IMG/VR virus record: IMGVR_UViG_3300023184_000076
Span: 1-64,000 of that record
Direction: 5' to 3' (one strand)
From: a virus
Lineage: Duplodnaviria > Heunggongvirae > Uroviricota > Caudoviricetes
Length of the DNA stretch: 64,000 nt
Part shown: one piece after another, positions 30,990 to 63,584 of the stretch
Position numbering within the stretch: position 1 is the stretch's first letter
How the letters are laid out: every line of letters begins with the position of its first letter
The notes under the pieces: model-generated
Seen by the model: only the letters and a program-made list of their open reading frames with translations
What the model was told of the DNA's origin: nothing
The model's database searches: none
Position numbers and translations under genes: made by a program

Positions 30990-31655
30990 TTATATATTTC
31001 CCCATCTTCTTCCATTTTTTATATCATAAAAAAAATGTTCTTTTACGTTAGGATAAAGTTCTATTAATTGTTTTATTTTATAACCTTCTTTTAATTTATT
31101 TTTAATATCAACAACTAAATCAACACCATATTTAGATGTCTTTTGTAAAGTTTCAGTTACCTTTATTATTCTTTTTTGTTTTTCTTCATCAGACATTTTA
31201 TCCCAACCTTTTTTAACCGCTAATCTTCGTTTTTCTATTTGTTCCTTAGCTCTATCACCATATAATTCTTCATAAGTTTTACCTTTGTGGGAATTACCAT
31301 TTTTGGTGTTTTCGGAAATTTTTTGTCTTATTTCCGCAGAGTGAGTATACCCTAAACAACCTTCACCCCCAAAAGTAGAATTTAACCCGTTACTATATGA
31401 GTCGTAACTTTCAATATATTTTTTTTCTGTCTCATATATTACACTTAAATCACATTCTTCAATCAACTCTATAGTAAAATTATCTTGACCATATTTTTTC
31501 ATTGAGTTATATAATTTTGATTTGTATTCAGAAGTAAAACATCTTGATAAATGTTCACCAAATCTTTTTTCTAAAGAATTGATTGTACAACCTATATAAA
31601 TTAAACCATTTTCTTTATTTGTTATTTTATATATCTTACCCTTTTCCGTGATCAT
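30990..31655 (-). CDS. GIY-YIG homing endonuclease (free-standing)
   Basis: GLIYIGCT...LEKRFGEH... N-terminal GIY-YIG module. Confidence 0.75.
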   Translation of the reverse strand: MITEKGKIYKITNKENGLIYIGCTINSLEKRFGEHLSRCFTSEYKSKLYNSMKKYGQDNFTIELIEECDLSVIYETEKKYIESYDSYSNGLNSTFGGEGCLGYTHSAEIRQKISENTKNGNSHKGKTYEELYGDRAKEQIEKRRLAVKKGWDKMSDEEKQKRIIKVTETLQKTSKYGVDLVVDIKNKLKEGYKIKQLIELYPNVKEHFFYDIKNGRRWGNI

Positions 31656-32071: not shown

Positions 32072-32827
32072 TTAGATCATTGACTCAGCAGTCTCCCAAA
32101 GTTTTGTGTTTATTGCGTTTACCGCCATAATGTTTTTCAAACCTCTCAATCCTGTCTTACGACCACTTTGTGATTTGTACTCAACTCCACCTCGTACAAA
32201 TTTCTCTTGTACTACGTTGAAGATTTTCCAAAGGTCATCCCCTTCATCTTCCTTACGATTAGGTGTCAACAAGTCAACCAAATCAAGTGTTGATGGTACT
32301 GAACCTGTTGCCCATCTAAGTTTAGATGCTTTTTGAACAAACTCTACTTTCTCGTCCATAGTAAGTTCTCGTTCCATCATTCGTCCAACAGAGTGTTGAA
32401 TCATTGGTAGTTTCTTTGCAAAACTCTCAGTTAACATTTTAACATCATCAAGTTGGAAATCTTTGTGACGGATTCGGAATTGATCCGCTACTGATGTAGG
32501 AACAGTCAAACCATTACTACATACCAATCTGTGAAGTCCTGCACTCATTGAGAATGCTGACATTCCATTGTGGGAGTTTTTGATGATCGCTTCAACCAAA
32601 GTATCACCAACTGATGGAAGTTGTCCATTACGGAACTTTACTTCGTGTAGGGCATGAATCCCTCTACCATTTTGTTTTACTGATGAAATTTCCCACCCTT
32701 CTCTATCGAAGAACTCCATGATCTTGTCTGTAGGGACAAACTCATATTTGTTTGTCAATTTTGACGATGGAGATGTTGCGAAGATTGATGGTGCCGCTGA
32801 CTTGATTAATTCTGGAGTATAGATCAT
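32072..32827 (-). CDS. hypothetical protein (251 aa); weak resemblance to DUF932-type phage/plasmid proteins
   Basis: ORF; family assignment from memory only. Confidence 0.5.
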   Translation of the reverse strand: MIYTPELIKSAAPSIFATSPSSKLTNKYEFVPTDKIMEFFDREGWEISSVKQNGRGIHALHEVKFRNGQLPSVGDTLVEAIIKNSHNGMSAFSMSAGLHRLVCSNGLTVPTSVADQFRIRHKDFQLDDVKMLTESFAKKLPMIQHSVGRMMERELTMDEKVEFVQKASKLRWATGSVPSTLDLVDLLTPNRKEDEGDDLWKIFNVVQEKFVRGGVEYKSQSGRKTGLRGLKNIMAVNAINTKLWETAESMI

Positions 32828-35127: not shown

Positions 35128-35967
35128 TTAGTAATTCATTATTAATAATTCCTCACCCATATTTTGTTTTGTTCCTTTCTTTGCCGCTGCCGCTTTAGCA
35201 AACTCTTTTTTCTCCCATCGATATATGTTATCAGGAAACCAAAAATGTAAAAGTTCAAAATCATAATACGATAATGAAAACTTACCTTGAATCCCGTTTA
35301 AAACATTTGCCAACCTCTCGTGATCTTCTCTATCAAAATCGTGGTTAGAATAGTAGTTCTCAGTTTTCCAATAAGGTGGATCAACATAGAAGTAAGTTGT
35401 TGGTGAATCATACTTTTCAATAACCTCAGCAAAATCCATATTCTCAACGTGAGTTATCTTTATGAAATGTTCAACCCAATCAGGTTTCATTAACTTATCT
35501 CTGAATGTTAAGTATTTAGATTTGTACTTACCTTTTAAGTCAATGAAAGAACTTTTTTCAGGTTTAGATCCTGAGAACACTTGTGTTAAAACATATGCGT
35601 ATTTAGCAGCAACATCATAATTACCAGGTTCTACGCTGAAATTATCAGCAAATATTTCAGCCTGAAACCTTACAAATTGTTCTTTATAAATTGAAGGTGT
35701 CACTTCTTCCCCAAATTGTTGACACGGTATTGCATTAATTGACTCTAATAATCTTTCAGGATTTTGAATACATTGAAACAAATTATAGTTGAGTGGGTTA
35801 AAGTCGTTGTAAACAACTCTCTTTAGATTTGGAAACTGTTTTAAGTCCATATTAAAGAAACACCAAAACATACCCCCAAATGTTTCAACATATGTCTCCA
35901 TGTCTTTATCATAGAAAGGGACAATCCACTTTCCAATTTTACTTTTACCTCCGATGTATGATAGCAT
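35128..35967 (-). CDS. dam: Dam-like D12-class N6-adenine DNA methyltransferase
   Basis: MLSYIGGKSKIGKWI N-terminus and FYVDPPYW motif IV. Confidence 0.8.
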   Translation of the reverse strand: MLSYIGGKSKIGKWIVPFYDKDMETYVETFGGMFWCFFNMDLKQFPNLKRVVYNDFNPLNYNLFQCIQNPERLLESINAIPCQQFGEEVTPSIYKEQFVRFQAEIFADNFSVEPGNYDVAAKYAYVLTQVFSGSKPEKSSFIDLKGKYKSKYLTFRDKLMKPDWVEHFIKITHVENMDFAEVIEKYDSPTTYFYVDPPYWKTENYYSNHDFDREDHERLANVLNGIQGKFSLSYYDFELLHFWFPDNIYRWEKKEFAKAAAAKKGTKQNMGEELLIMNY

Positions 35968-36069: not shown

Positions 36070-36243
36070 ATGGAAGAAGAAACATACAACAAAACAGAAG
36101 CAACCCAAGTTACAGGTTGTAGAAAATGTAATCAAACCACAGGGAAAACACAAAAATTTGTTTTTATTACCGGTGGTATCATGTTTGCATTATCAATATA
36201 TGGGGCGGTTTCCTTATATAAAGACATTATGTCTTTATTTTAA
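36070..36243 (+). CDS. small membrane protein (57 aa, ...CRKCNQ...FVFITGGIMFALSIYGAVSLY), not in track
   Basis: Own translation. Confidence 0.3.
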   Translation: MEEETYNKTEATQVTGCRKCNQTTGKTQKFVFITGGIMFALSIYGAVSLYKDIMSLF

Positions 36244-37148
36244 GGTCTATCAAACCTAACAATCTGATTAATTAAAAGATCACCAATTTGTCCTGCTCTA
36301 AACCCTTTACCTTTAACTCTCAAAGGTTTTGAGGAATCAAAAAATTTAGGTAATTTAATATTTAATTCACCATCAGGATGAGGTATGTTGATATCCTCTT
36401 TCATAAGATCTTCATAGTTCAAGTAAGAATTATATATTAAATGTGGACCATTCTTAAAGAAACCATTTTCTTCCACTAAATTAATCCTTATTACCAAATC
36501 CCCGAACCTACCACTTCTAAAATCACCAACACCTGACATTTTTATGAACTGACCATCCTCAATCCCATGTGGTATTTTAACTTCAACTGTTTTCATTTCA
36601 TCTTTAGTCTCTGATCCATTACAAGCATAACAAGCATTTATGGTGATTTTACCTGTACCAGAACAAGTATCACAACTCATATTAACAACTTGTATAAACA
36701 TACCTGTACCCACTTGTCTCATTACACTACCAACACCGTCACAGGTTGTACATACTTTCTTTTCACCTCCCGTACCACCACAAGAATTACAATTAGTTTT
36801 TCTCTTATATGTTATTTGTTTGTTTCTACTTAAAAATGAATCCAACACACCTATGTTAACCGTTATAACACTACTGTGATTATCCTGTCTTTGTCGTTGT
36901 TGATTGAACGAATGAAACATATCGGCAAAATTACCACCAAATGGGTTATTCCGTTGATTATCGTATTGTTTTCGTTTACTTTCGTCTCCAATCGTATCAT
37001 AAGCGGCTGAGATCTTTTTAAACATCTCACCATCCCCACCTTTATCTGGATGATTTTCTTTGGCTAGGTTTCTATACGCCTTCTTAATGTCTTCTTGCGT
37101 CGCCTTTTCATCAACACCTAAAACCTCATAATAGTTATCATTATTCAT
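36240..37148 (-). CDS. dnaJ: DnaJ/Hsp40 co-chaperone
   Basis: J-domain with HPD (DYYEVLGV...HPDK), four CxxCxGxG zinc-finger repeats, C-terminal domain. Confidence 0.9.
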   Translation of the reverse strand: MNNDNYYEVLGVDEKATQEDIKKAYRNLAKENHPDKGGDGEMFKKISAAYDTIGDESKRKQYDNQRNNPFGGNFADMFHSFNQQRQRQDNHSSVITVNIGVLDSFLSRNKQITYKRKTNCNSCGGTGGEKKVCTTCDGVGSVMRQVGTGMFIQVVNMSCDTCSGTGKITINACYACNGSETKDEMKTVEVKIPHGIEDGQFIKMSGVGDFRSGRFGDLVIRINLVEENGFFKNGPHLIYNSYLNYEDLMKEDINIPHPDGELNIKLPKFFDSSKPLRVKGKGFRAGQIGDLLINQIVRFDRP

Positions 37149-38320: not shown

Positions 38321-38708
38321 CTTCTAATTCAATTTTTTGATCATCGGAAATTTCAAATTTTAATGCTTGTAGATTATCTAAATTTTGTTTTTCAAAAATA
38401 GATTTTAACTCATTAACTTTGGTTTGGAACAGTTTATCCTTTTCCTCTCTTTCTTTATTATATTTAATAATGTTTCTGAGATTGTTAAAAATTTTTTCAA
38501 CCTCTTCTTCATTAAAGGTACTAACAAATGAAAAGAATCTTTTACCTGTTTCAGTAGATTCATTTTCTAATAACGTTTCTTCATCAACAAACTTTTTTGG
38601 TATTTTCCATGTGTTAGGAAAATGTATGTCAAATGAAAGATATGTTTTCAACTTTCTTACGGATTGTAAGTATGGTGATAAAGTATTAAATTCAGTAAAA
38701 AAACTCAT
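38280..38708 (-). CDS. hypothetical protein (142 aa)
   Basis: ORF. Confidence 0.5.
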   Translation of the reverse strand: MSFFTEFNTLSPYLQSVRKLKTYLSFDIHFPNTWKIPKKFVDEETLLENESTETGKRFFSFVSTFNEEEVEKIFNNLRNIIKYNKEREEKDKLFQTKVNELKSIFEKQNLDNLQALKFEISDDQKIELEDGEENTDPVRNSN

Positions 38709-38899
38709 AAAAAATTTTGTATTGTGTAAGTTATAACATAAGACAATGAAATACCTTGGAATAATATTTCCCTATTACTCATCACCAATCTTTCAGGTAA
38801 AGTTTGTAATAGGGAAAATATAAATTTTACAACAACTCTAAAAACTGACAGAGCTGAAAAAATGAACATAAATAGATATAAACTATCAATATTAGTCAT
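38705..38899 (-). CDS. small membrane protein (64 aa)
   Basis: ORF, hydrophobic. Confidence 0.4.
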   Translation of the reverse strand: MTNIDSLYLFMFIFSALSVFRVVVKFIFSLLQTLPERLVMSNREILFQGISLSYVITYTIQNFL

Positions 38900-39065
38900 T
38901 TTTCTTAGAATCTAAGATTTCACCTCTTAATGTTTGCAATAAAGCTTTTAATTCTTGAGATGTTTTTCTTGCTCTTGTTCCTGCACTTTTATTTCCTGCA
39001 AAAAATTTAGTTGTGTCAGCACTTAATAGTTCAACTAATGTTTTAATTTGTTCTAACGTTTCCAT
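38892..39065 (-). CDS. histone H1-like (Hc1-family) small basic nucleoid protein, 57 aa, not in ORF track
   Basis: Own translation METLEQIKTLVELLSADTTKFFAGNKSAGTRARKTSQELKALLQTLRGEILDSKKND; aligns with Chlamydia Hc1 N-terminal domain (...KAEKGNKAAAQRVRTESIKLEK...); ATGA overlap with next gene. Confidence 0.45.
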   Translation of the reverse strand: METLEQIKTLVELLSADTTKFFAGNKSAGTRARKTSQELKALLQTLRGEILDSKKND

Positions 39066-39129
39066 TTTTTAAATGTATTTTATTGTTTATGTAATTTAAT
39101 TATACCTCACTAATTTACCATAGTAAATA

Positions 39130-39597
39130 CTATAATACCAAATTTTTATCCAAACTTCTGTAAATATTAAGTATCATATCTAAATCAGATTGGGTGAATG
39201 GTTTATCTAAGTCAAACACATCTCTAAAGAAAACATTAATAGAATCTTTAATTTTTTTATCAACCTGATTATAATATATTTCAGAAAAAAATGATTGAAA
39301 GTGATCATAATGATCCCCCCGTTTGTTGAAGGTTATGTTTTCCAAATTAAAACTATCTATTGTTTTGTCCCAACACCAATCAAAGTGTTTATTCTTATCC
39401 TCTTCGGTCATCAATACTTTGGTTTCATTAAAACCATCGTCATCACCAAGATAAGTCTCTAAAATTAATTTATGTATGGATATAGAGAAATCATAATATA
39501 ATTCCATCTTCTCAGGAATGATATTGTTGATGTTAAACCAAATCTCAATATCCTCCTGTTTTAATTGTTTTGATATGTAGTTAAAAAAATTGTCCAT
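39130..39597 (-). CDS. hypothetical protein (155 aa)
   Basis: ORF. Confidence 0.5.
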   Translation of the reverse strand: MDNFFNYISKQLKQEDIEIWFNINNIIPEKMELYYDFSISIHKLILETYLGDDDGFNETKVLMTEEDKNKHFDWCWDKTIDSFNLENITFNKRGDHYDHFQSFFSEIYYNQVDKKIKDSINVFFRDVFDLDKPFTQSDLDMILNIYRSLDKNLVL

Positions 39598-39645
39598 AGA
39601 TTAATACCTATGGACAATGATAATACCTAATTATGTAATTGTAAA

Positions 39646-41238
39646 TTATTGAGTGTTTTTCTTATAAGACATTAAATTCATAATACGTGTAAAATCCTCA
39701 TTGATTTTTTGTTTTTTCTTTTCATCAATAGATTCTAACTTAGTCATAATTTTATCTCCCTCATTTTCACCTGATTTGTCAGTTACGACAGGTTGAGGTG
39801 CTTTATTGTAAGCCTTACGTTTAATTTTAGCCAATAAATTATCTTTTCTAATCTTATTTCTCTTCTCATTATTTGGTGTCTCAACTGCGTTTGCCCATTC
39901 AGGATTATTACCCGTTCTTGAAGACCCAACTACGTTGTCAGTTACCCAATCTTCATCAGGATGTATTTCATCGTAATCTAAGTTTTCTAAACCAGCAGCA
40001 GTGAAGTTATCAATATAATCTTCAATTGCTCCTGAAGCAACATAAGCTTTTTTATCCATTTTAGCCAATTCACCATTTCCTTTTGGAAAATGTTTTGGTG
40101 ACATTTCATATTCACCTTTAGATCCGTCTTTCAAATAATCTTTCATTTTTTTGGTCAAATCTTTCATATAACCTTCTTCATTTTTTTTTGACGTTTTAAT
40201 AGATCTTTCATATTCAGCATATCCAGCCGGTGTCTTACCTTTATTGAATTTACCTTCTTCTTTTAAAACAATATTTTCAATCATTTCTTCAAACTGGTTT
40301 TCATTAAATAAAAGTTTTTCTCTTTTACCATTTACTGCGGTTGTTAATTCATAGAACACATTTTCATTTACATCTTCTTTTTTTCTTAACATTTTGAAGT
40401 CCTGCGAATCCAATCTTCCATTTTTATTTTTATCCAATCTGCGTTGATTTCCGTAAAATTTTTCATCCAACTCACCTTCATCGGACGCATAAGTTGATAT
40501 TTCACCAAATCCAGGAAGAAAAAAACTATCGTCATCACTTTCATATTCATGTGACATATTTTTGATTTTATCAAAATGACCTTGATACCATTCTTTTGTT
40601 TTATCGTCCGTTGAATCTGTTTCGTATGAGTGTGCCTTAAATTTTTCACCATCACGTTTTCCTTTTAAAGTATGTTTTCCGTTATCTAACCAATTATGAA
40701 TAATTTCATCATCTTTTGTTCGGTTATGGGTATTTCTTGATTCAGCATCATCTTCTCTCATTTCGTGGTAAACACCTTCGTTCATGTCATCTTCAACATC
40801 TTTATGTCTGTCTTCACGAGATCTCATACCCATAGCATCTCTCATAGGAGTTTTAAATTTACCTTTATTAGCTCTGATAGCATCTCTCATAGGAGTTCTA
40901 AATTTACCTTTATGAGATCTAATGGCATCTCTCATAGGTGTTTTAAAATCCATTTCGTCATCTTCTTTCATTTCTCCACCACATTCAGAACATTCACCTT
41001 CTCTCATTTCACCACCACATTCATTACATTCTTGTGAGTCACCTTCGGACATATATCCACATTCGGAACATTCACCTTCTCTAACCATTCCACCACATTC
41101 TGAGCATTCAGCTTCTTCAACGTAGTCAAAAGAACTGCCAGGTTTGTTAAATTTTAATTTTCCCATAACTTCATTTGCCTTATCTTCTAAAGTTTCGTTG
41201 ATAAGTTTTTGAATTTTATTTTTTAAATAATTGTTCAT
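39646..41238 (-). CDS. Cys-repeat protein: 4x (E)GECSECGG zinc-ribbon-like motifs, 3x KTPMRDAIR..KGKF repeats, EF-hand-like loop DKNKNGRLDSQD
   Basis: Internal repeats visible at protein and DNA level (40820-40960). Confidence 0.55.
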   Translation of the reverse strand: MNNYLKNKIQKLINETLEDKANEVMGKLKFNKPGSSFDYVEEAECSECGGMVREGECSECGYMSEGDSQECNECGGEMREGECSECGGEMKEDDEMDFKTPMRDAIRSHKGKFRTPMRDAIRANKGKFKTPMRDAMGMRSREDRHKDVEDDMNEGVYHEMREDDAESRNTHNRTKDDEIIHNWLDNGKHTLKGKRDGEKFKAHSYETDSTDDKTKEWYQGHFDKIKNMSHEYESDDDSFFLPGFGEISTYASDEGELDEKFYGNQRRLDKNKNGRLDSQDFKMLRKKEDVNENVFYELTTAVNGKREKLLFNENQFEEMIENIVLKEEGKFNKGKTPAGYAEYERSIKTSKKNEEGYMKDLTKKMKDYLKDGSKGEYEMSPKHFPKGNGELAKMDKKAYVASGAIEDYIDNFTAAGLENLDYDEIHPDEDWVTDNVVGSSRTGNNPEWANAVETPNNEKRNKIRKDNLLAKIKRKAYNKAPQPVVTDKSGENEGDKIMTKLESIDEKKKQKINEDFTRIMNLMSYKKNTQ

Positions 41239-42037: not shown

Positions 42038-42282
42038 TATGAACTTCTAAATTTAGATTCCCAGAAACTTCTTTGGTGGAACATCATTGTGAAAAATTCT
42101 CTGAATGATTTCACAACTATATCTTTAATATCACCTTCTAGTTTACCTCTTTTTATGTCTTTAGAGACTTTAGCAATTAATTTATCTTCAAATTGTTTGG
42201 CAGTAGTAGATCCCAAGAAATCTTTCATTTCTTTTCTAATTAAAGTTTCAATTTCTTTTTTATCTGTTTGCGATAATGCCAT
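42037..42282 (-). CDS. hypothetical protein (81 aa)
   Basis: ORF. Confidence 0.45.
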   Translation of the reverse strand: MALSQTDKKEIETLIRKEMKDFLGSTTAKQFEDKLIAKVSKDIKRGKLEGDIKDIVVKSFREFFTMMFHQRSFWESKFRSS

Positions 42283-42692
42283 TATTGTGTTACTACTTGA
42301 TAGGTTAATGCTCCAATTAAAATGCCTGAGACTATTTCTATAATTACATTCTTTCTTCTTAATTTTTTGTTATCGGTAACTAAATTTTTATTTATTTTAT
42401 CAACGATATCAAATTTCTCATTTGTTTTTTGAATTATTGTATCACTCATCTTAACTTTATCTTCTAAATTCCCAATAATTCCTTGTTGAGCATCTATTTT
42501 TTTATTTAATTCAATAACTTCAGTTTCAGTTAATTTAAGGATTGCCGTTGTGGAATCTAATCTATTTAGATCCAACATAATTTGTTTACCAACACTATAA
42601 GGTAAACATATTTCAGTTGTGTCAACTTTTTTAATTTGACTAAATGATGTCAATGACACCAAAAGAAATAACATTGATATTATATTTTTCAT
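42282..42692 (-). CDS. secreted/periplasmic coiled-coil protein with C-terminal TM
   Basis: Bacteroidetes-type signal peptide MKNIISMLFLLVSLTSFSQ. Confidence 0.5.
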   Translation of the reverse strand: MKNIISMLFLLVSLTSFSQIKKVDTTEICLPYSVGKQIMLDLNRLDSTTAILKLTETEVIELNKKIDAQQGIIGNLEDKVKMSDTIIQKTNEKFDIVDKINKNLVTDNKKLRRKNVIIEIVSGILIGALTYQVVTQ

Positions 42693-62243: not shown

Positions 62244-63584
62244 TTAAGCCCTAGTTTCACTAAATTGTTTAACAGGATTTTTAATTGTTAGATTACAACA
62301 TTCACAATTATTTAAGATCGCTTTCTCAATAATTACATTAGTTGTTCGATTAACCGAATAACAATTAACTAAAGGAGTAATCGGATTTATTGTGTCTGTA
62401 AATGTACCACTAACAGTTGTCGTAGAATTAAAAGTTAATGAGTTCCAAGTGGTAACATTAGTATTTGTATAAACAGATCCTGAATCACAAGGGTTAAACG
62501 CAACACTCGTACTTAACATAGGTGATGGTGTTGTAATAGGTGACCCATTAACAATAAGAGTAACCACATTATTGTATACCGCTACGGTTGGTGATGGTGC
62601 CACTTTAAATACACTATTATGTTTTAAATCAAAAGTGATAGACGCACCAACAGGTAATGTAGGTGTCACATTTATATTAAATGAGTTAGGTCCCGTTGAG
62701 ACCAAAGCAATTTGATATGTTTGATTAGGTGGGGGAGCCAATAATGTAACACTTTGTGTTGTTGTTATGTTATTTGAGTCTTTCACTTTAACAGAATAAA
62801 TTCCACCAGATAAATTAGTAAACACAGGACTCGATTGATATGTAGTCCCACCATTAATTGAATATTGGTATGACGGTGTCCCGCCATTTGCAGTTATGAT
62901 AATACTACCATTACTACCACAAGTTGGTGATTGACTACTTATTGACATATTAACTATAGGATTATCAATACATAGTCCTTCTGTTACCGTAATAATAAAT
63001 GTCCCCGAATAACTTCCACCTAAGAATTGCCATCCCGTTAATGGAGGTACTGATGTATTTGAATTGTATATAATACCATCACTCCATCCATCTACTAACC
63101 ATTGATTTGTAGTACCTGTACTCCAATATATATTATATAAGTCATCATCAGATACCCAAGTAGGGTATCCATTTAAATAACCATTAAATAAGAATTGATT
63201 TGTTTGATAATTTGACCCAGTAGTATCTATAAAATTCATACATAAATCACCATAAGGAGGTAATGTGGTTGTTGAGGTAGAGGTTGTTGATGTAGTTGTT
63301 GTTGCAGTTAAACTACAAATTGTATTTGCAGTAAAATCACCATAAAAATCAACGATAGTTGCATGGTAATCTCCAACACCAAGATTATCTTTTGTTGGAC
63401 CTGAACCACCTTCTTCCCAAGTAATATTATATGGTGGAGTTCCACCACTAACCATTAAACTAATTGCCCCATCATAAGATTGTGGAGAACTTGGATTAGT
63501 TGTATTACAAATAGCAGTCATTGGAAATAACGTTACTATCGCACATTCATTTACAGGTTTTATTGATATCGGTTGAGTTCCCAT
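62244..63584 (-). CDS. Thr/Ser-rich structural-type protein (Ig-like/β-rich)
   Basis: Composition, adjacency to PT-linker proteins. Confidence 0.5.
   Translation of the reverse strand: MGTQPISIKPVNECAIVTLFPMTAICNTTNPSSPQSYDGAISLMVSGGTPPYNITWEEGGSGPTKDNLGVGDYHATIVDFYGDFTANTICSLTATTTTSTTSTSTTTLPPYGDLCMNFIDTTGSNYQTNQFLFNGYLNGYPTWVSDDDLYNIYWSTGTTNQWLVDGWSDGIIYNSNTSVPPLTGWQFLGGSYSGTFIITVTEGLCIDNPIVNMSISSQSPTCGSNGSIIITANGGTPSYQYSINGGTTYQSSPVFTNLSGGIYSVKVKDSNNITTTQSVTLLAPPPNQTYQIALVSTGPNSFNINVTPTLPVGASITFDLKHNSVFKVAPSPTVAVYNNVVTLIVNGSPITTPSPMLSTSVAFNPCDSGSVYTNTNVTTWNSLTFNSTTTVSGTFTDTINPITPLVNCYSVNRTTNVIIEKAILNNCECCNLTIKNPVKQFSETRA

What the first reader, a model, noticed from the sequence alone, without database searches (positions are those of the whole stretch)
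38892..39065. Unannotated 57-aa ORF resembling histone H1-like protein Hc1
The ORF is absent from the track (<60 aa) but is tightly packed (ATGA overlap with the next gene) and strongly basic in its centre. FFAGNKSAGTRARKTSQELKALLQTLRGEIL aligns with the DNA-binding N-terminal domain of chlamydial/Bacteroidetes Hc1 (KAEKGNKAAAQRVRTESIKLEKIAKVYRKESI). A phage-encoded nucleoid-compaction or histone-like protein could silence host DNA, package phage DNA or act as an anti-defence DNA binder.
Basis: partly seen in the sequence, partly recalled or inferred. Interest (0 to 1): 0.6.

Follow-up and report, generated by a model that had tools for sequence, protein, structure and literature searches.

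The report
Phage stand-alone Hc1-domain small protein
The 57-codon ORF is a real, strongly conserved gene of a widespread freshwater jumbo-phage lineage and belongs to the bacterial "Hc1/histone H1-like" family, but it carries only the helical domain that dimerises chlamydial Hc1 and lacks that protein's DNA-binding tail, so its DNA-compaction role is plausible but unproven and the gene family has already been reported in such phages.

Summary
The ORF is real: 38892..39065, minus strand, 57 aa. It matches Pfam Hc1 (PF07432) end to end at 68.2 bits against a cutoff of 23.5. It recurs in at least 331 viral contigs of up to 321 kb in fixed synteny. It is under strong purifying selection (dN/dS about 0.075) and is one of the two best-conserved genes in its neighbourhood.

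The functional reading is only partly right.
- The protein aligns only to HctA residues 5-57. A paper citing the primary studies says this part mediates dimerisation, while the Lys-rich C-terminal tail binds DNA. That tail is absent here.
- The protein fails the NCBIfam HctA equivalog (16.9 against 100 bits).
- It is predicted with high confidence (pLDDT 97) to be a two-helix hairpin, not a linker-histone winged helix.
- This short form is the family's usual architecture in Bacteroidota, Balneolaceae and Planctomycetota, and no held paper characterises it.

A conserved basic stripe (K26/R33/K40/R47/K54, plus K20, R31, K34) makes nucleic-acid binding by a dimer my best guess, at about 0.4 confidence.

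PF07432 proteins in "moraphage" jumbo phages were published in 2025, and phage S-SRM01 already carries the annotation "histone H1". This is a new member of a known kind, of moderate interest.

The parts
38892..39065 (-). CDS of the 57-aa stand-alone Hc1-domain protein (METLEQIK...DSKKND). Predicted helix 2-22, GN turn at 23-25, helix 26-56.
   Evidence: ORF listing. Pfam PF07432 at 68.2 bits, full length. AlphaFold2 pLDDT 97.1. dN/dS 0.075 across 81 copies. Median 81% aa identity over 80 syntenic viral loci.
39066..39129 (-). 64-nt upstream intergenic region with conserved promoter-like elements. TTTACT lies at 39127..39122 (TTTAC is at least 90% conserved across 43 distinct upstream sequences). 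TATAAT lies at 39104..39099 after a 17-nt spacer (only TA...TT is conserved). ATAAAC lies at 39090..39085, 20 nt before the ATG (near-invariant). There is no Shine-Dalgarno sequence; an A-rich leader precedes the start.
   Evidence: Consensus scan. Alignment of 43 distinct upstream sequences. The motifs are not enriched elsewhere in the window, so they are specific to this gene. A promoter function is inferred, not shown.
38705..38899 (-). Downstream 64-aa ORF whose ATG lies 8 nt inside the end of the Hc1 gene. It is a conserved small membrane protein with two hydrophobic segments. It is probably co-transcribed and translationally coupled; a functional link is unknown.
   Evidence: ORF listing. 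Present in 79 of 80 loci at median 50% identity. 41 distinct variants of 60-65 aa with Kyte-Doolittle 19-residue maxima of 1.7-2.55 and a conserved start offset. No family match.

Best explanation
This is a genuine, strongly constrained phage gene for a stand-alone Hc1-domain protein, the short form of PF07432.

Shown:
- It is a roughly 57-residue two-helix hairpin.
- It is homologous to the N-terminal domain of chlamydial Hc1/HctA only.
- It keeps every family-conserved residue: K20, G24, N25, A28, G29, R31, R33, Q37, R47.
- It lacks the Lys/Ala-rich tail that gives HctA its H1 resemblance.
- It forms a phage-specific clade, with at most 54% identity to cellular copies.
- It sits in fixed synteny in a widespread freshwater jumbo-phage lineage consistent with 'moraphages' that infect Bacteroidota.

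Inferred mechanism:
- The hairpin pairs into a four-helix-bundle dimer, as reported for Hc1 residues 2-57.
- The dimer displays a heptad-spaced basic stripe on helix 2 (K26, R33, K40, R47, K54, flanked by Q37 and Q44), plus K20, R31 and K34 near the turn.
- Through this surface it binds nucleic acid without sequence specificity.
- It would then act as the phage's own version of the host-type short Hc1 nucleoid-associated protein, made from its own promoter. Its job would be to organise or compact the very large phage genome during replication or packaging, or to coat and remodel the host nucleoid.

It is not a linker histone and cannot work through the HctA tail mechanism.
For: Identity:
- Pfam Hc1 at 68.2 against 23.5 bits, full length.
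- hhalign to HctA residues 5-57, probability 93.6%.
- 264 cluster representatives at 50% identity, mostly 57-63 aa single-domain proteins with net charge about +2 to +5.

Real and important gene:
- dN/dS of 0.075.
- 81% median identity where most neighbours are at 36-53%.
- The exact sequence occurs in 1,465 index blocks.
- Conserved upstream motifs.

Structure: pLDDT 97 helical hairpin. The nearest shapes are dimeric hairpin and four-helix-bundle proteins (CDK2AP1, SSV1 D-63, Aqs1) and the rRNA-binding protein uL29.

Binding surface: the basic residues at 26/33/40/47/54 fall on one helical face at about 75 degrees. That face is separate from the hydrophobic face at about 300 degrees and the acidic face at about 190 degrees. 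R33 and K20 are invariant.

Family link to nucleic acids: full-length Hc1 binds and condenses DNA. Some non-chlamydial members carry Lys-rich tails, for example P0170, P0197, P0247 and P0262.

Phage and host setting:
- DnaJ, a Dam methylase and an SbcC-like protein lie nearby.
- Only 2 of 51 genes have a Shine-Dalgarno core.
- An SprB repeat is present.
- Moraphages are reported to encode PF07432 and DnaJ and to infect Bacteroidota.
- The close tblastn hits among deposited phages are all genomes of 240-642 kb.
Against: - The only experimental statement available says the homologous N-terminal domain of Hc1 dimerises and the C-terminal tail binds DNA. From my memory of the Pedersen 1996 abstract, which I could not read here, Hc1 residues 2-57 showed no nucleic-acid binding in gel-shift or Southwestern assays.
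- The phage protein is only net +2.
- Some family members carry acidic tails or a net negative charge. Recurrent acquisition of Lys-rich tails could mean the core alone binds DNA poorly.
- No solved structure or characterised short-form member exists.
- Fold matches are non-significant and generic.
- The gene's neighbours give no functional pointer.
- More distant Hc1-like proteins also occur outside the huge-phage hits, for example the 'Histone H1' entry of Pseudomonas phage ZC08, which as far as I recall is not a jumbo phage. A link to huge genomes is therefore weak.
- The 80 loci were chosen by Hc1 similarity, which inflates its apparent relative conservation somewhat.
Confidence: 0.42

Rival explanations
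1. The protein works through protein-protein contacts rather than by binding DNA. Because it equals the dimerisation module of Hc1, the phage copy would heterodimerise with the host's own short Hc1-family protein, or with another host partner. It would thereby poison, replace or redirect that protein, which is a dominant-negative or mimic take-over strategy.
For: - The N-terminal Hc1 domain is described as the dimerisation site.
- The phage protein covers exactly that domain and nothing else.
- Bacteroidota and relatives, the predicted host group, encode short Hc1 proteins 47-54% identical to it with the same hydrophobic core positions.
- The nearest structural shapes include Aqs1, a phage hairpin dimer that acts by binding a host regulator.
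Against: - The phage protein is not a truncated form. It has the same complete architecture as the cellular proteins, so it looks like a functional equivalent rather than an antagonist.
- All surface-exposed conserved basic and polar residues are retained, which a pure dimerisation decoy would not need.
- There is no direct evidence for any partner.
Confidence: 0.2
2. The protein binds RNA or associates with the ribosome to modulate translation or RNA stability during infection, rather than organising DNA.
For: - Chlamydial Hc1 binds RNA as well as DNA and represses translation in vitro (title of reference 57).
- Several of the closest hairpin shapes are ribosomal protein uL29 and its eukaryotic equivalent, which lie on rRNA.
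- The conserved residues (Arg, Lys, Gln, Asn, Gly) are equally typical of RNA contacts.
Against: - In Hc1 the RNA binding is attributed to the C-terminal tail, which is missing here.
- The structural matches have E-values above 0.3 and are generic for any helical hairpin.
- No Rfam element or RNA-related gene is linked to the locus.
Confidence: 0.1
3. The ORF is a chance reading frame, or a recently captured host gene that rides along as a passenger without a phage function.
For: It is short (57 aa). The genome is AT-rich and full of small ORFs. PHROGs holds no family for it.
Against: - Pfam E = 5.5e-19.
- dN/dS of 0.075, and an ATG start conserved in all 81 copies.
- Fixed synteny in 80 loci, and higher conservation than most neighbours.
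- The best cellular homologue is only 54% identical, whereas the phage copies listed are at least 75% identical to each other. This means long vertical inheritance inside the phage lineage, not recent capture.
Confidence: 0.01

Closest known systems
Chlamydial histone H1-like protein Hc1 / HctA (NCBIfam NF051889; founding member of Pfam PF07432)
   Same: The N-terminal conserved helical domain is homologous. Window residues 2-54 align to HctA residues 5-57 (hhalign probability 93.6%, 26% identity), including the GNK..A..R.R core.
   Different: - There is no Lys/Ala-rich C-terminal tail. HctA residues 58-125 carry net +28, and this tail is the part credited with DNA/RNA binding and with the H1 resemblance.
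- It scores 16.9 bits against the equivalog cutoff of 100.
- Pairwise BLASTP finds no alignment.
- HctA differs at several family-conserved stripe positions: G29 to A, K34 to T, Q37 to I, K40 to E (read from the alignment).
Short single-domain 'histone H1' proteins (PF07432 only) of Balneolaceae, Bacteroidia/Cytophagia, Planctomycetota and Fibrobacterota
   Same: Same length of about 57-63 aa, same single-domain architecture, same conserved residues and a similar modest positive charge. This is the group it truly belongs to.
   Different: The phage copies form their own clade. The 80 viral loci listed are at least 75% identical to the window protein, while the best cellular hit is 54%. No member of this group has a tested function in the literature I could search.
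Histone H1-like proteins (PF07432) reported in 'moraphage' jumbo phages (PMC12619734), and the 'histone H1' of Synechococcus phage S-SRM01 (QPX48246.1)
   Same: - Same Pfam family in large aquatic phages.
- The window shares the moraphage hallmarks of DnaJ, Bacteroidota-type features and relatives of 200-320 kb.
- The S-SRM01 protein is 42.6% identical over 95% of the query.
   Different: - I could not place the window in the moraphage clade by marker phylogeny.
- S-SRM01 is an unrelated T4-like cyanophage. Its gene has a different downstream partner, so there is no shared module.
- The moraphage paper equates the protein with linker histone H1, which the evidence here does not support.
Eukaryotic and giant-virus linker histone H1 (winged-helix globular domain, Pfam Linker_histone PF00538)
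   Same: Only the name. The name comes from the Lys-rich tail of chlamydial Hc1.
   Different: - The Pfam scan returned only Hc1.
- The predicted fold is a two-helix hairpin. The linker-histone globular domain is a three-helix winged helix, which is established knowledge.
- There is no Lys-rich tail.

Membership tests
Pfam PF07432 (Hc1 domain family) | Profile score above the curated gathering threshold, over the full domain | tested here: met
   68.2 bits against a cutoff of 23.5, E = 5.5e-19, protein residues 1-55 on profile positions 1-56 of 57.
Pfam PF07432 (Hc1 domain family) | Conserved core motif K-F-x-x-G-N-K-x-A-G-T-R-x-R-K ... Q ... R | tested here: met
   The window protein has K20, G24, N25, K26, A28, G29, T30, R31, R33, K34, Q37 and R47. 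All invariant or at least 90% conserved columns of a 63-sequence alignment are matched.
Pfam PF07432 (Hc1 domain family) | All-alpha-helical domain | tested here: met
   AlphaFold2 gives helices 2-22 and 26-56 at mean pLDDT 97.1. This is a prediction only, and no solved structure exists.
HctA / chlamydial Hc1 orthologue (NCBIfam NF051889 equivalog) | Score at or above the 100-bit equivalog cutoff | tested here: not met
   16.9 bits, E = 0.0078. A recalled C. trachomatis HctA sequence scores 155.3 bits as a positive control.
HctA / chlamydial Hc1 orthologue (NCBIfam NF051889 equivalog) | Lys/Ala-rich C-terminal tail, the H1-like DNA/RNA-binding domain | tested here: not met
   The protein ends at residue 57, and the alignment stops at HctA residue 57. 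The HctA tail carries net +28, while the whole phage protein carries net +2.
HctA / chlamydial Hc1 orthologue (NCBIfam NF051889 equivalog) | Condenses DNA and represses transcription and translation | not testable with these tools
   Requires EMSA, microscopy or expression experiments.
Eukaryotic-type linker histone H1/H5 | Winged-helix globular domain (Pfam PF00538) | tested here: not met
   No such Pfam hit at E up to 1. The predicted fold is a two-helix hairpin.
Moraphage lineage of jumbo phages (PMC12619734) | Genome above 200 kb, aquatic, Bacteroidota host signals, and DnaJ/DnaK and PF07432 genes | tested here: inconclusive
   - The window is only 64 kb, but contigs carrying the identical protein reach 279-292 kb, and related viral contigs reach 321 kb.
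- DnaJ is present.
- Only 2 of 51 genes have a Shine-Dalgarno core, and an SprB repeat is present.
- All of this is consistent with moraphages.
Moraphage lineage of jumbo phages (PMC12619734) | Placement inside the clade by MCP, TerL and PolB phylogeny or shared VOGs | not tested

The most novel reading that the evidence does not exclude
The stand-alone Hc1 hairpin is by itself a nucleoid or chromatin protein of a structurally new class: a dimeric alpha-hairpin with a heptad-spaced basic stripe. A whole lineage of jumbo phages makes its own diverged copy as a core gene to build 'phage chromatin'. That could mean coating or compacting its roughly 300-kb genome, or being packaged with it. Alternatively the copy invades and takes over the host's Hc1-based nucleoid.
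Probability: 0.2. Interest if true: 0.65.

Novelty: new member of a known kind. Interest (0 to 1): 0.35.

Why it matters
Very little is known about how jumbo phages organise genomes of 200-600 kb. The short Hc1-domain proteins that are common in Bacteroidota and Planctomycetota have, as far as I could find, never been characterised biochemically.

This gene is one of the most constrained in its region of a very widespread freshwater phage. At 57 residues it is trivially easy to synthesise, so it is a cheap and well-defined test case. A gel shift and a cross-linking experiment would settle whether the 'histone H1' label carried by hundreds of database entries means anything for the short form.

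The practical lesson for annotation is that 'histone H1' here is a name inherited from the tail of a chlamydial protein. These proteins do not have that tail.

Tried and rejected
- Pairwise BLASTP of the phage protein against HctA gave no alignment. Only profile methods see the relationship.
- PHROGs has no family for it; the best match has E = 0.067.
- PADLOC gave no hit for the protein or for its small neighbours.
- Rfam gave nothing at gathering thresholds anywhere in the window, so there is no structured-RNA alternative.
- A sequence search of the PDB with a family profile found no homologue.
- Foldseek against PDB and BFVD gave no match at E up to 0.001, only generic hairpins. A few viral proteins there are already named 'Histone H1'. 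The afdb50 library was not available.
- I asked whether Hc1 and its downstream ORF form a module conserved across phage families. They do not: the downstream ORF of S-SRM01 is an unrelated hydrophilic protein.
- I asked whether the conserved upstream motifs are a general promoter of this phage. They are not enriched in the window, and sigma-70-like sites in the region are no more frequent than in shuffles.
- Neighbours of cellular homologues showed no family recurring across phyla. My crude ORF calling in GC-rich genomes produced many spurious frames, so this is weak negative evidence.
- The primary papers, Pedersen 1996 and Remacha 1996, are not held. The domain assignment therefore rests on a secondary citation and on my memory.
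- The first genome scan, with the 63-sequence alignment, failed for lack of a conserved stretch.
- Megablast of 20 kb of the window against deposited phages found nothing.

Full report
**1. The observation**

- The window holds an ATG-to-TAA ORF of 57 codons at 38892..39065 on the minus strand. It encodes METLEQIKTLVELLSADTTKFFAGNKSAGTRARKTSQELKALLQTLRGEILDSKKND.
- No ORF of 30 aa or more overlaps it on the other strand.
- The protein has 10 K/R and 8 D/E, so net +2 and pI 9.2. Its centre, residues 20-47, has 7 basic residues against 1 acidic.
- The next ORF downstream (38705..38899) starts 8 nt inside its end, at ATGACTAA.

**2. Family membership**

- Pfam gives a full-length match to Hc1 (PF07432). 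E = 5.5e-19 and 68.2 bits against a gathering score of 23.5, on profile positions 1-56 of 57.
- NCBIfam's HctA equivalog scores only 16.9 bits against a cutoff of 100.
- PHROGs, PADLOC and Rfam give nothing.
- As a control, the C. trachomatis HctA sequence that I recalled from memory scores 155 bits on the HctA model.
- A profile of 63 family members aligns window residues 2-54 to HctA residues 5-57 (probability 93.6%, E = 2e-7, 26% identity) and to nothing beyond.
- HctA residues 58-125, the Lys/Ala-rich tail with net +28, have no counterpart.

**3. Is it a real gene?**

- The protein database returns 928 homologues. All 120 listed are 51-75 aa and carry PF07432.
- The viral-contig collection holds 331 relatives, on contigs of up to 321 kb.
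- The identical sequence is indexed in 1,465 blocks of public assemblies, on contigs of up to 292 kb. Gene callers already call it there.
- Eighty viral loci are collinear with window 32.8-45.5 kb at 68-94% nucleotide identity. The order is the same in all of them: 155-aa gene, Hc1, 64-aa gene, 142-aa gene, then DnaJ further on and the Dam methylase beyond that.
- Across these loci Hc1 has a median 81% amino-acid identity. Most neighbours are at 36-53%, and only the D12 adenine methyltransferase is comparable at 80%.
- All 81 copies start with ATG. Mean pN is 0.106 against pS of 0.549, and the median dN/dS is 0.075.
- Caveat: the 80 loci were the top ones by Hc1 similarity, which flatters Hc1 somewhat. 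The dN/dS result does not depend on that choice.
- The 64-nt upstream spacer carries two near-invariant motifs across 43 distinct sequences. TTTAC sits directly after the upstream gene's stop codon. ATAAAC lies about 20 nt before the ATG. A TAnnnT element (TATAAT in the window) follows TTTAC after 17 nt.
- These motifs are not enriched elsewhere in the window. I read them as a dedicated promoter and leader, which is an inference.

**4. What kind of genome**

- About 31% GC, almost all genes on one strand, and no tRNA genes.
- Most large proteins have no family match.
- Recognisable genes are a full-length DnaJ, a Dam-like methylase, DUF932, a GIY-YIG homing endonuclease, an amidase, an SbcC-like protein, and proteins with a peptidoglycan-binding domain and an SprB repeat.
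- Only 2 of 51 genes have a Shine-Dalgarno core, and the leaders are 50% A. By established knowledge this fits hosts in Bacteroidota.
- No deposited phage is close at the DNA level.
- All of this fits the 'moraphages' of Perez-Hernandez et al. 2025. These are aquatic jumbo phages of 200-307 kb with predicted Bacteroidota hosts, DnaJ and DnaK genes, and a PF07432 'histone H1-like' protein in the four complete genomes.
- I could not test clade membership by phylogeny.

**5. Structure and conserved surface**

- AlphaFold2 with the 63-sequence alignment predicts a two-helix hairpin: helix 2-22, a turn at G24-N25, and helix 26-56. Mean pLDDT is 97.1.
- Nothing in the PDB or BFVD matches at E up to 0.001. 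The nearest shapes are generic hairpins: CDK2AP1, SSV1 D-63 and phage Aqs1, which as far as I recall are all dimers, plus ribosomal uL29.
- No PDB entry contains the domain.
- K20 and R33 are invariant. G24, N25, A28, G29, R31, Q37 and R47 are at least 90% conserved.
- On a helical wheel, helix 2 has three faces. The hydrophobic face lies at about 300 degrees, the acidic face at about 190 degrees, and the basic face at about 75 degrees.
- The basic face is made of K26, R33, K40, R47 and K54, exactly one heptad apart, flanked by Q37 and Q44.
- The fold is not the winged helix of linker histones, which is established knowledge. 'Histone H1' is therefore a misnomer for this short form.

**6. What the literature supports**

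[quoted passage not shown] It cites Pedersen 1996 and Remacha 1996.
- PMC1403754 reports that cleavage of the C-terminal part of Hc1 dissociates Hc1-DNA complexes.
- The primary papers are not held. From memory, Pedersen 1996 found Hc1 residues 2-57 to be alpha-helical, dimeric and without nucleic-acid binding in their assays.
- I found no paper on the short single-domain proteins.
- The moraphage paper only speculates about genome compaction, and it equates the protein with linker histone H1.

**7. Distribution**

- An exhaustive search of 1.84 billion cluster representatives finds 264 at E up to 0.001. Most are 57-63 aa single-domain proteins with net charge about +2 to +5.
- A few carry Lys-rich tails (P0170, P0197, P0247, P0262) or acidic tails (P0161, P0211, P0223, P0244).
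- In one genome per species, more than 531 cellular loci match the core pattern. The best are in Balneolaceae, Phycisphaerae and other Planctomycetota, Fibrobacterota, Bacteroidia and Dyadobacter. They reach at most 54% identity to the phage protein.
- The 80 viral loci listed are at least 75% identical to the window protein. The phage copies are thus an old, vertically inherited clade of their own, not a recent capture.
- Among deposited phages, tblastn finds close relatives only in S-SRM01 (241 kb, annotated 'histone H1') and three metagenomic huge phages of 462-642 kb.
- BFVD shows more distant 'Histone H1' entries in other viruses too, for example Pseudomonas phage ZC08 and Virus NIOZ-UU157. 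I therefore do not claim a strict link with genome size.

**8. How it most likely works**

- Shown: a real, constrained, stand-alone Hc1-domain hairpin that keeps all family-conserved residues and has no tail.
- Inferred: it dimerises into a four-helix bundle and uses the conserved basic stripe to bind nucleic acid non-specifically. It would serve as a phage-made equivalent of the host-type short Hc1 protein, organising the large phage genome or remodelling the host nucleoid. My confidence is about 0.4.
- One reason the negative result for Hc1 residues 2-57 may not transfer: HctA has replaced several stripe residues (G29 to A, K34 to T, Q37 to I, K40 to E; read). That fits a shift of DNA binding to its tail.
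- Rival 1, action purely through protein contacts, for example heterodimers with host Hc1 proteins: about 0.2.
- Rival 2, RNA or ribosome binding: about 0.1.
- Rival 3, chance ORF or passenger gene: refuted.
- The remaining probability is for functions I cannot name.

**9. Verdict**

- The mechanistic claim is not established and is partly at odds with the literature.
- The presence of this family in such phages is already published.
- This is a new member of a known kind, of moderate interest. Its value is mainly as an easy experimental entry point to an uncharacterised but very common small protein family.

Noticed in passing
window 39646..41238 (-): A 530-aa protein two genes upstream of Hc1 has repeated CxxC zinc-ribbon-like units and internal tandem repeats: 45 bp x 2.6 copies at 40832-40947 and 36 bp x 2.1 copies at 40958-41031. 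Its length varies from 368 to 718 aa among phages that carry the identical Hc1 protein. It is a hypervariable-length gene in an otherwise conserved block.
   Followed up: partly
window 38705..38899 (-): A conserved small protein of 60-65 aa with two hydrophobic segments overlaps the end of the Hc1 gene by 8 nt. It is present in 79 of 80 related loci and has no family match.
   Followed up: partly
window 42282..42692 (-): A 136-aa protein gives a sub-threshold match to the CAP12/Pycsar effector TIR domain (PF10137, E = 1.1e-4, 22.7 against 24.7 bits). PADLOC gives no hit. It may be a phage TIR-like protein.
   Followed up: no
window 35128..35967 (-) and 36240..37148 (-): A D12-class N6-adenine DNA methyltransferase is as conserved as Hc1, at a median 80% identity across related phages. 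A complete three-domain DnaJ lies next to it, and DnaJ is a hallmark reported for moraphages.
   Followed up: partly
window 30990..31655 (-) and 32072..32827 (-): A GIY-YIG homing endonuclease and a DUF932 protein lie in the same block. No group I intron or other Rfam family was detected anywhere in the window.
   Followed up: no
whole window (51 genes checked): Only 2 of 51 genes have a Shine-Dalgarno core within 21 nt of the start, and the leaders are 50% A. An SprB-repeat protein lies at 62244..63584. Both point to a Bacteroidota host.
   Followed up: partly
window 39589..39618 (-): A terminator-like hairpin with a 13-bp stem followed by a T-run sits between the 530-aa gene and the 155-aa gene. 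It is the only such site in 1.5 kb, against 0.2 expected. It would end the upstream transcript about 0.5 kb before the Hc1 promoter-like motifs.
   Followed up: no
L161 (Synechococcus phage S-SRM01, record 186889..187323): This unrelated cyanophage carries a Dps-family 'DNA starvation/stationary phase protection protein' about 3 kb from its own 'histone H1' gene. That is a second DNA-coating-type protein in the same region.
   Followed up: no
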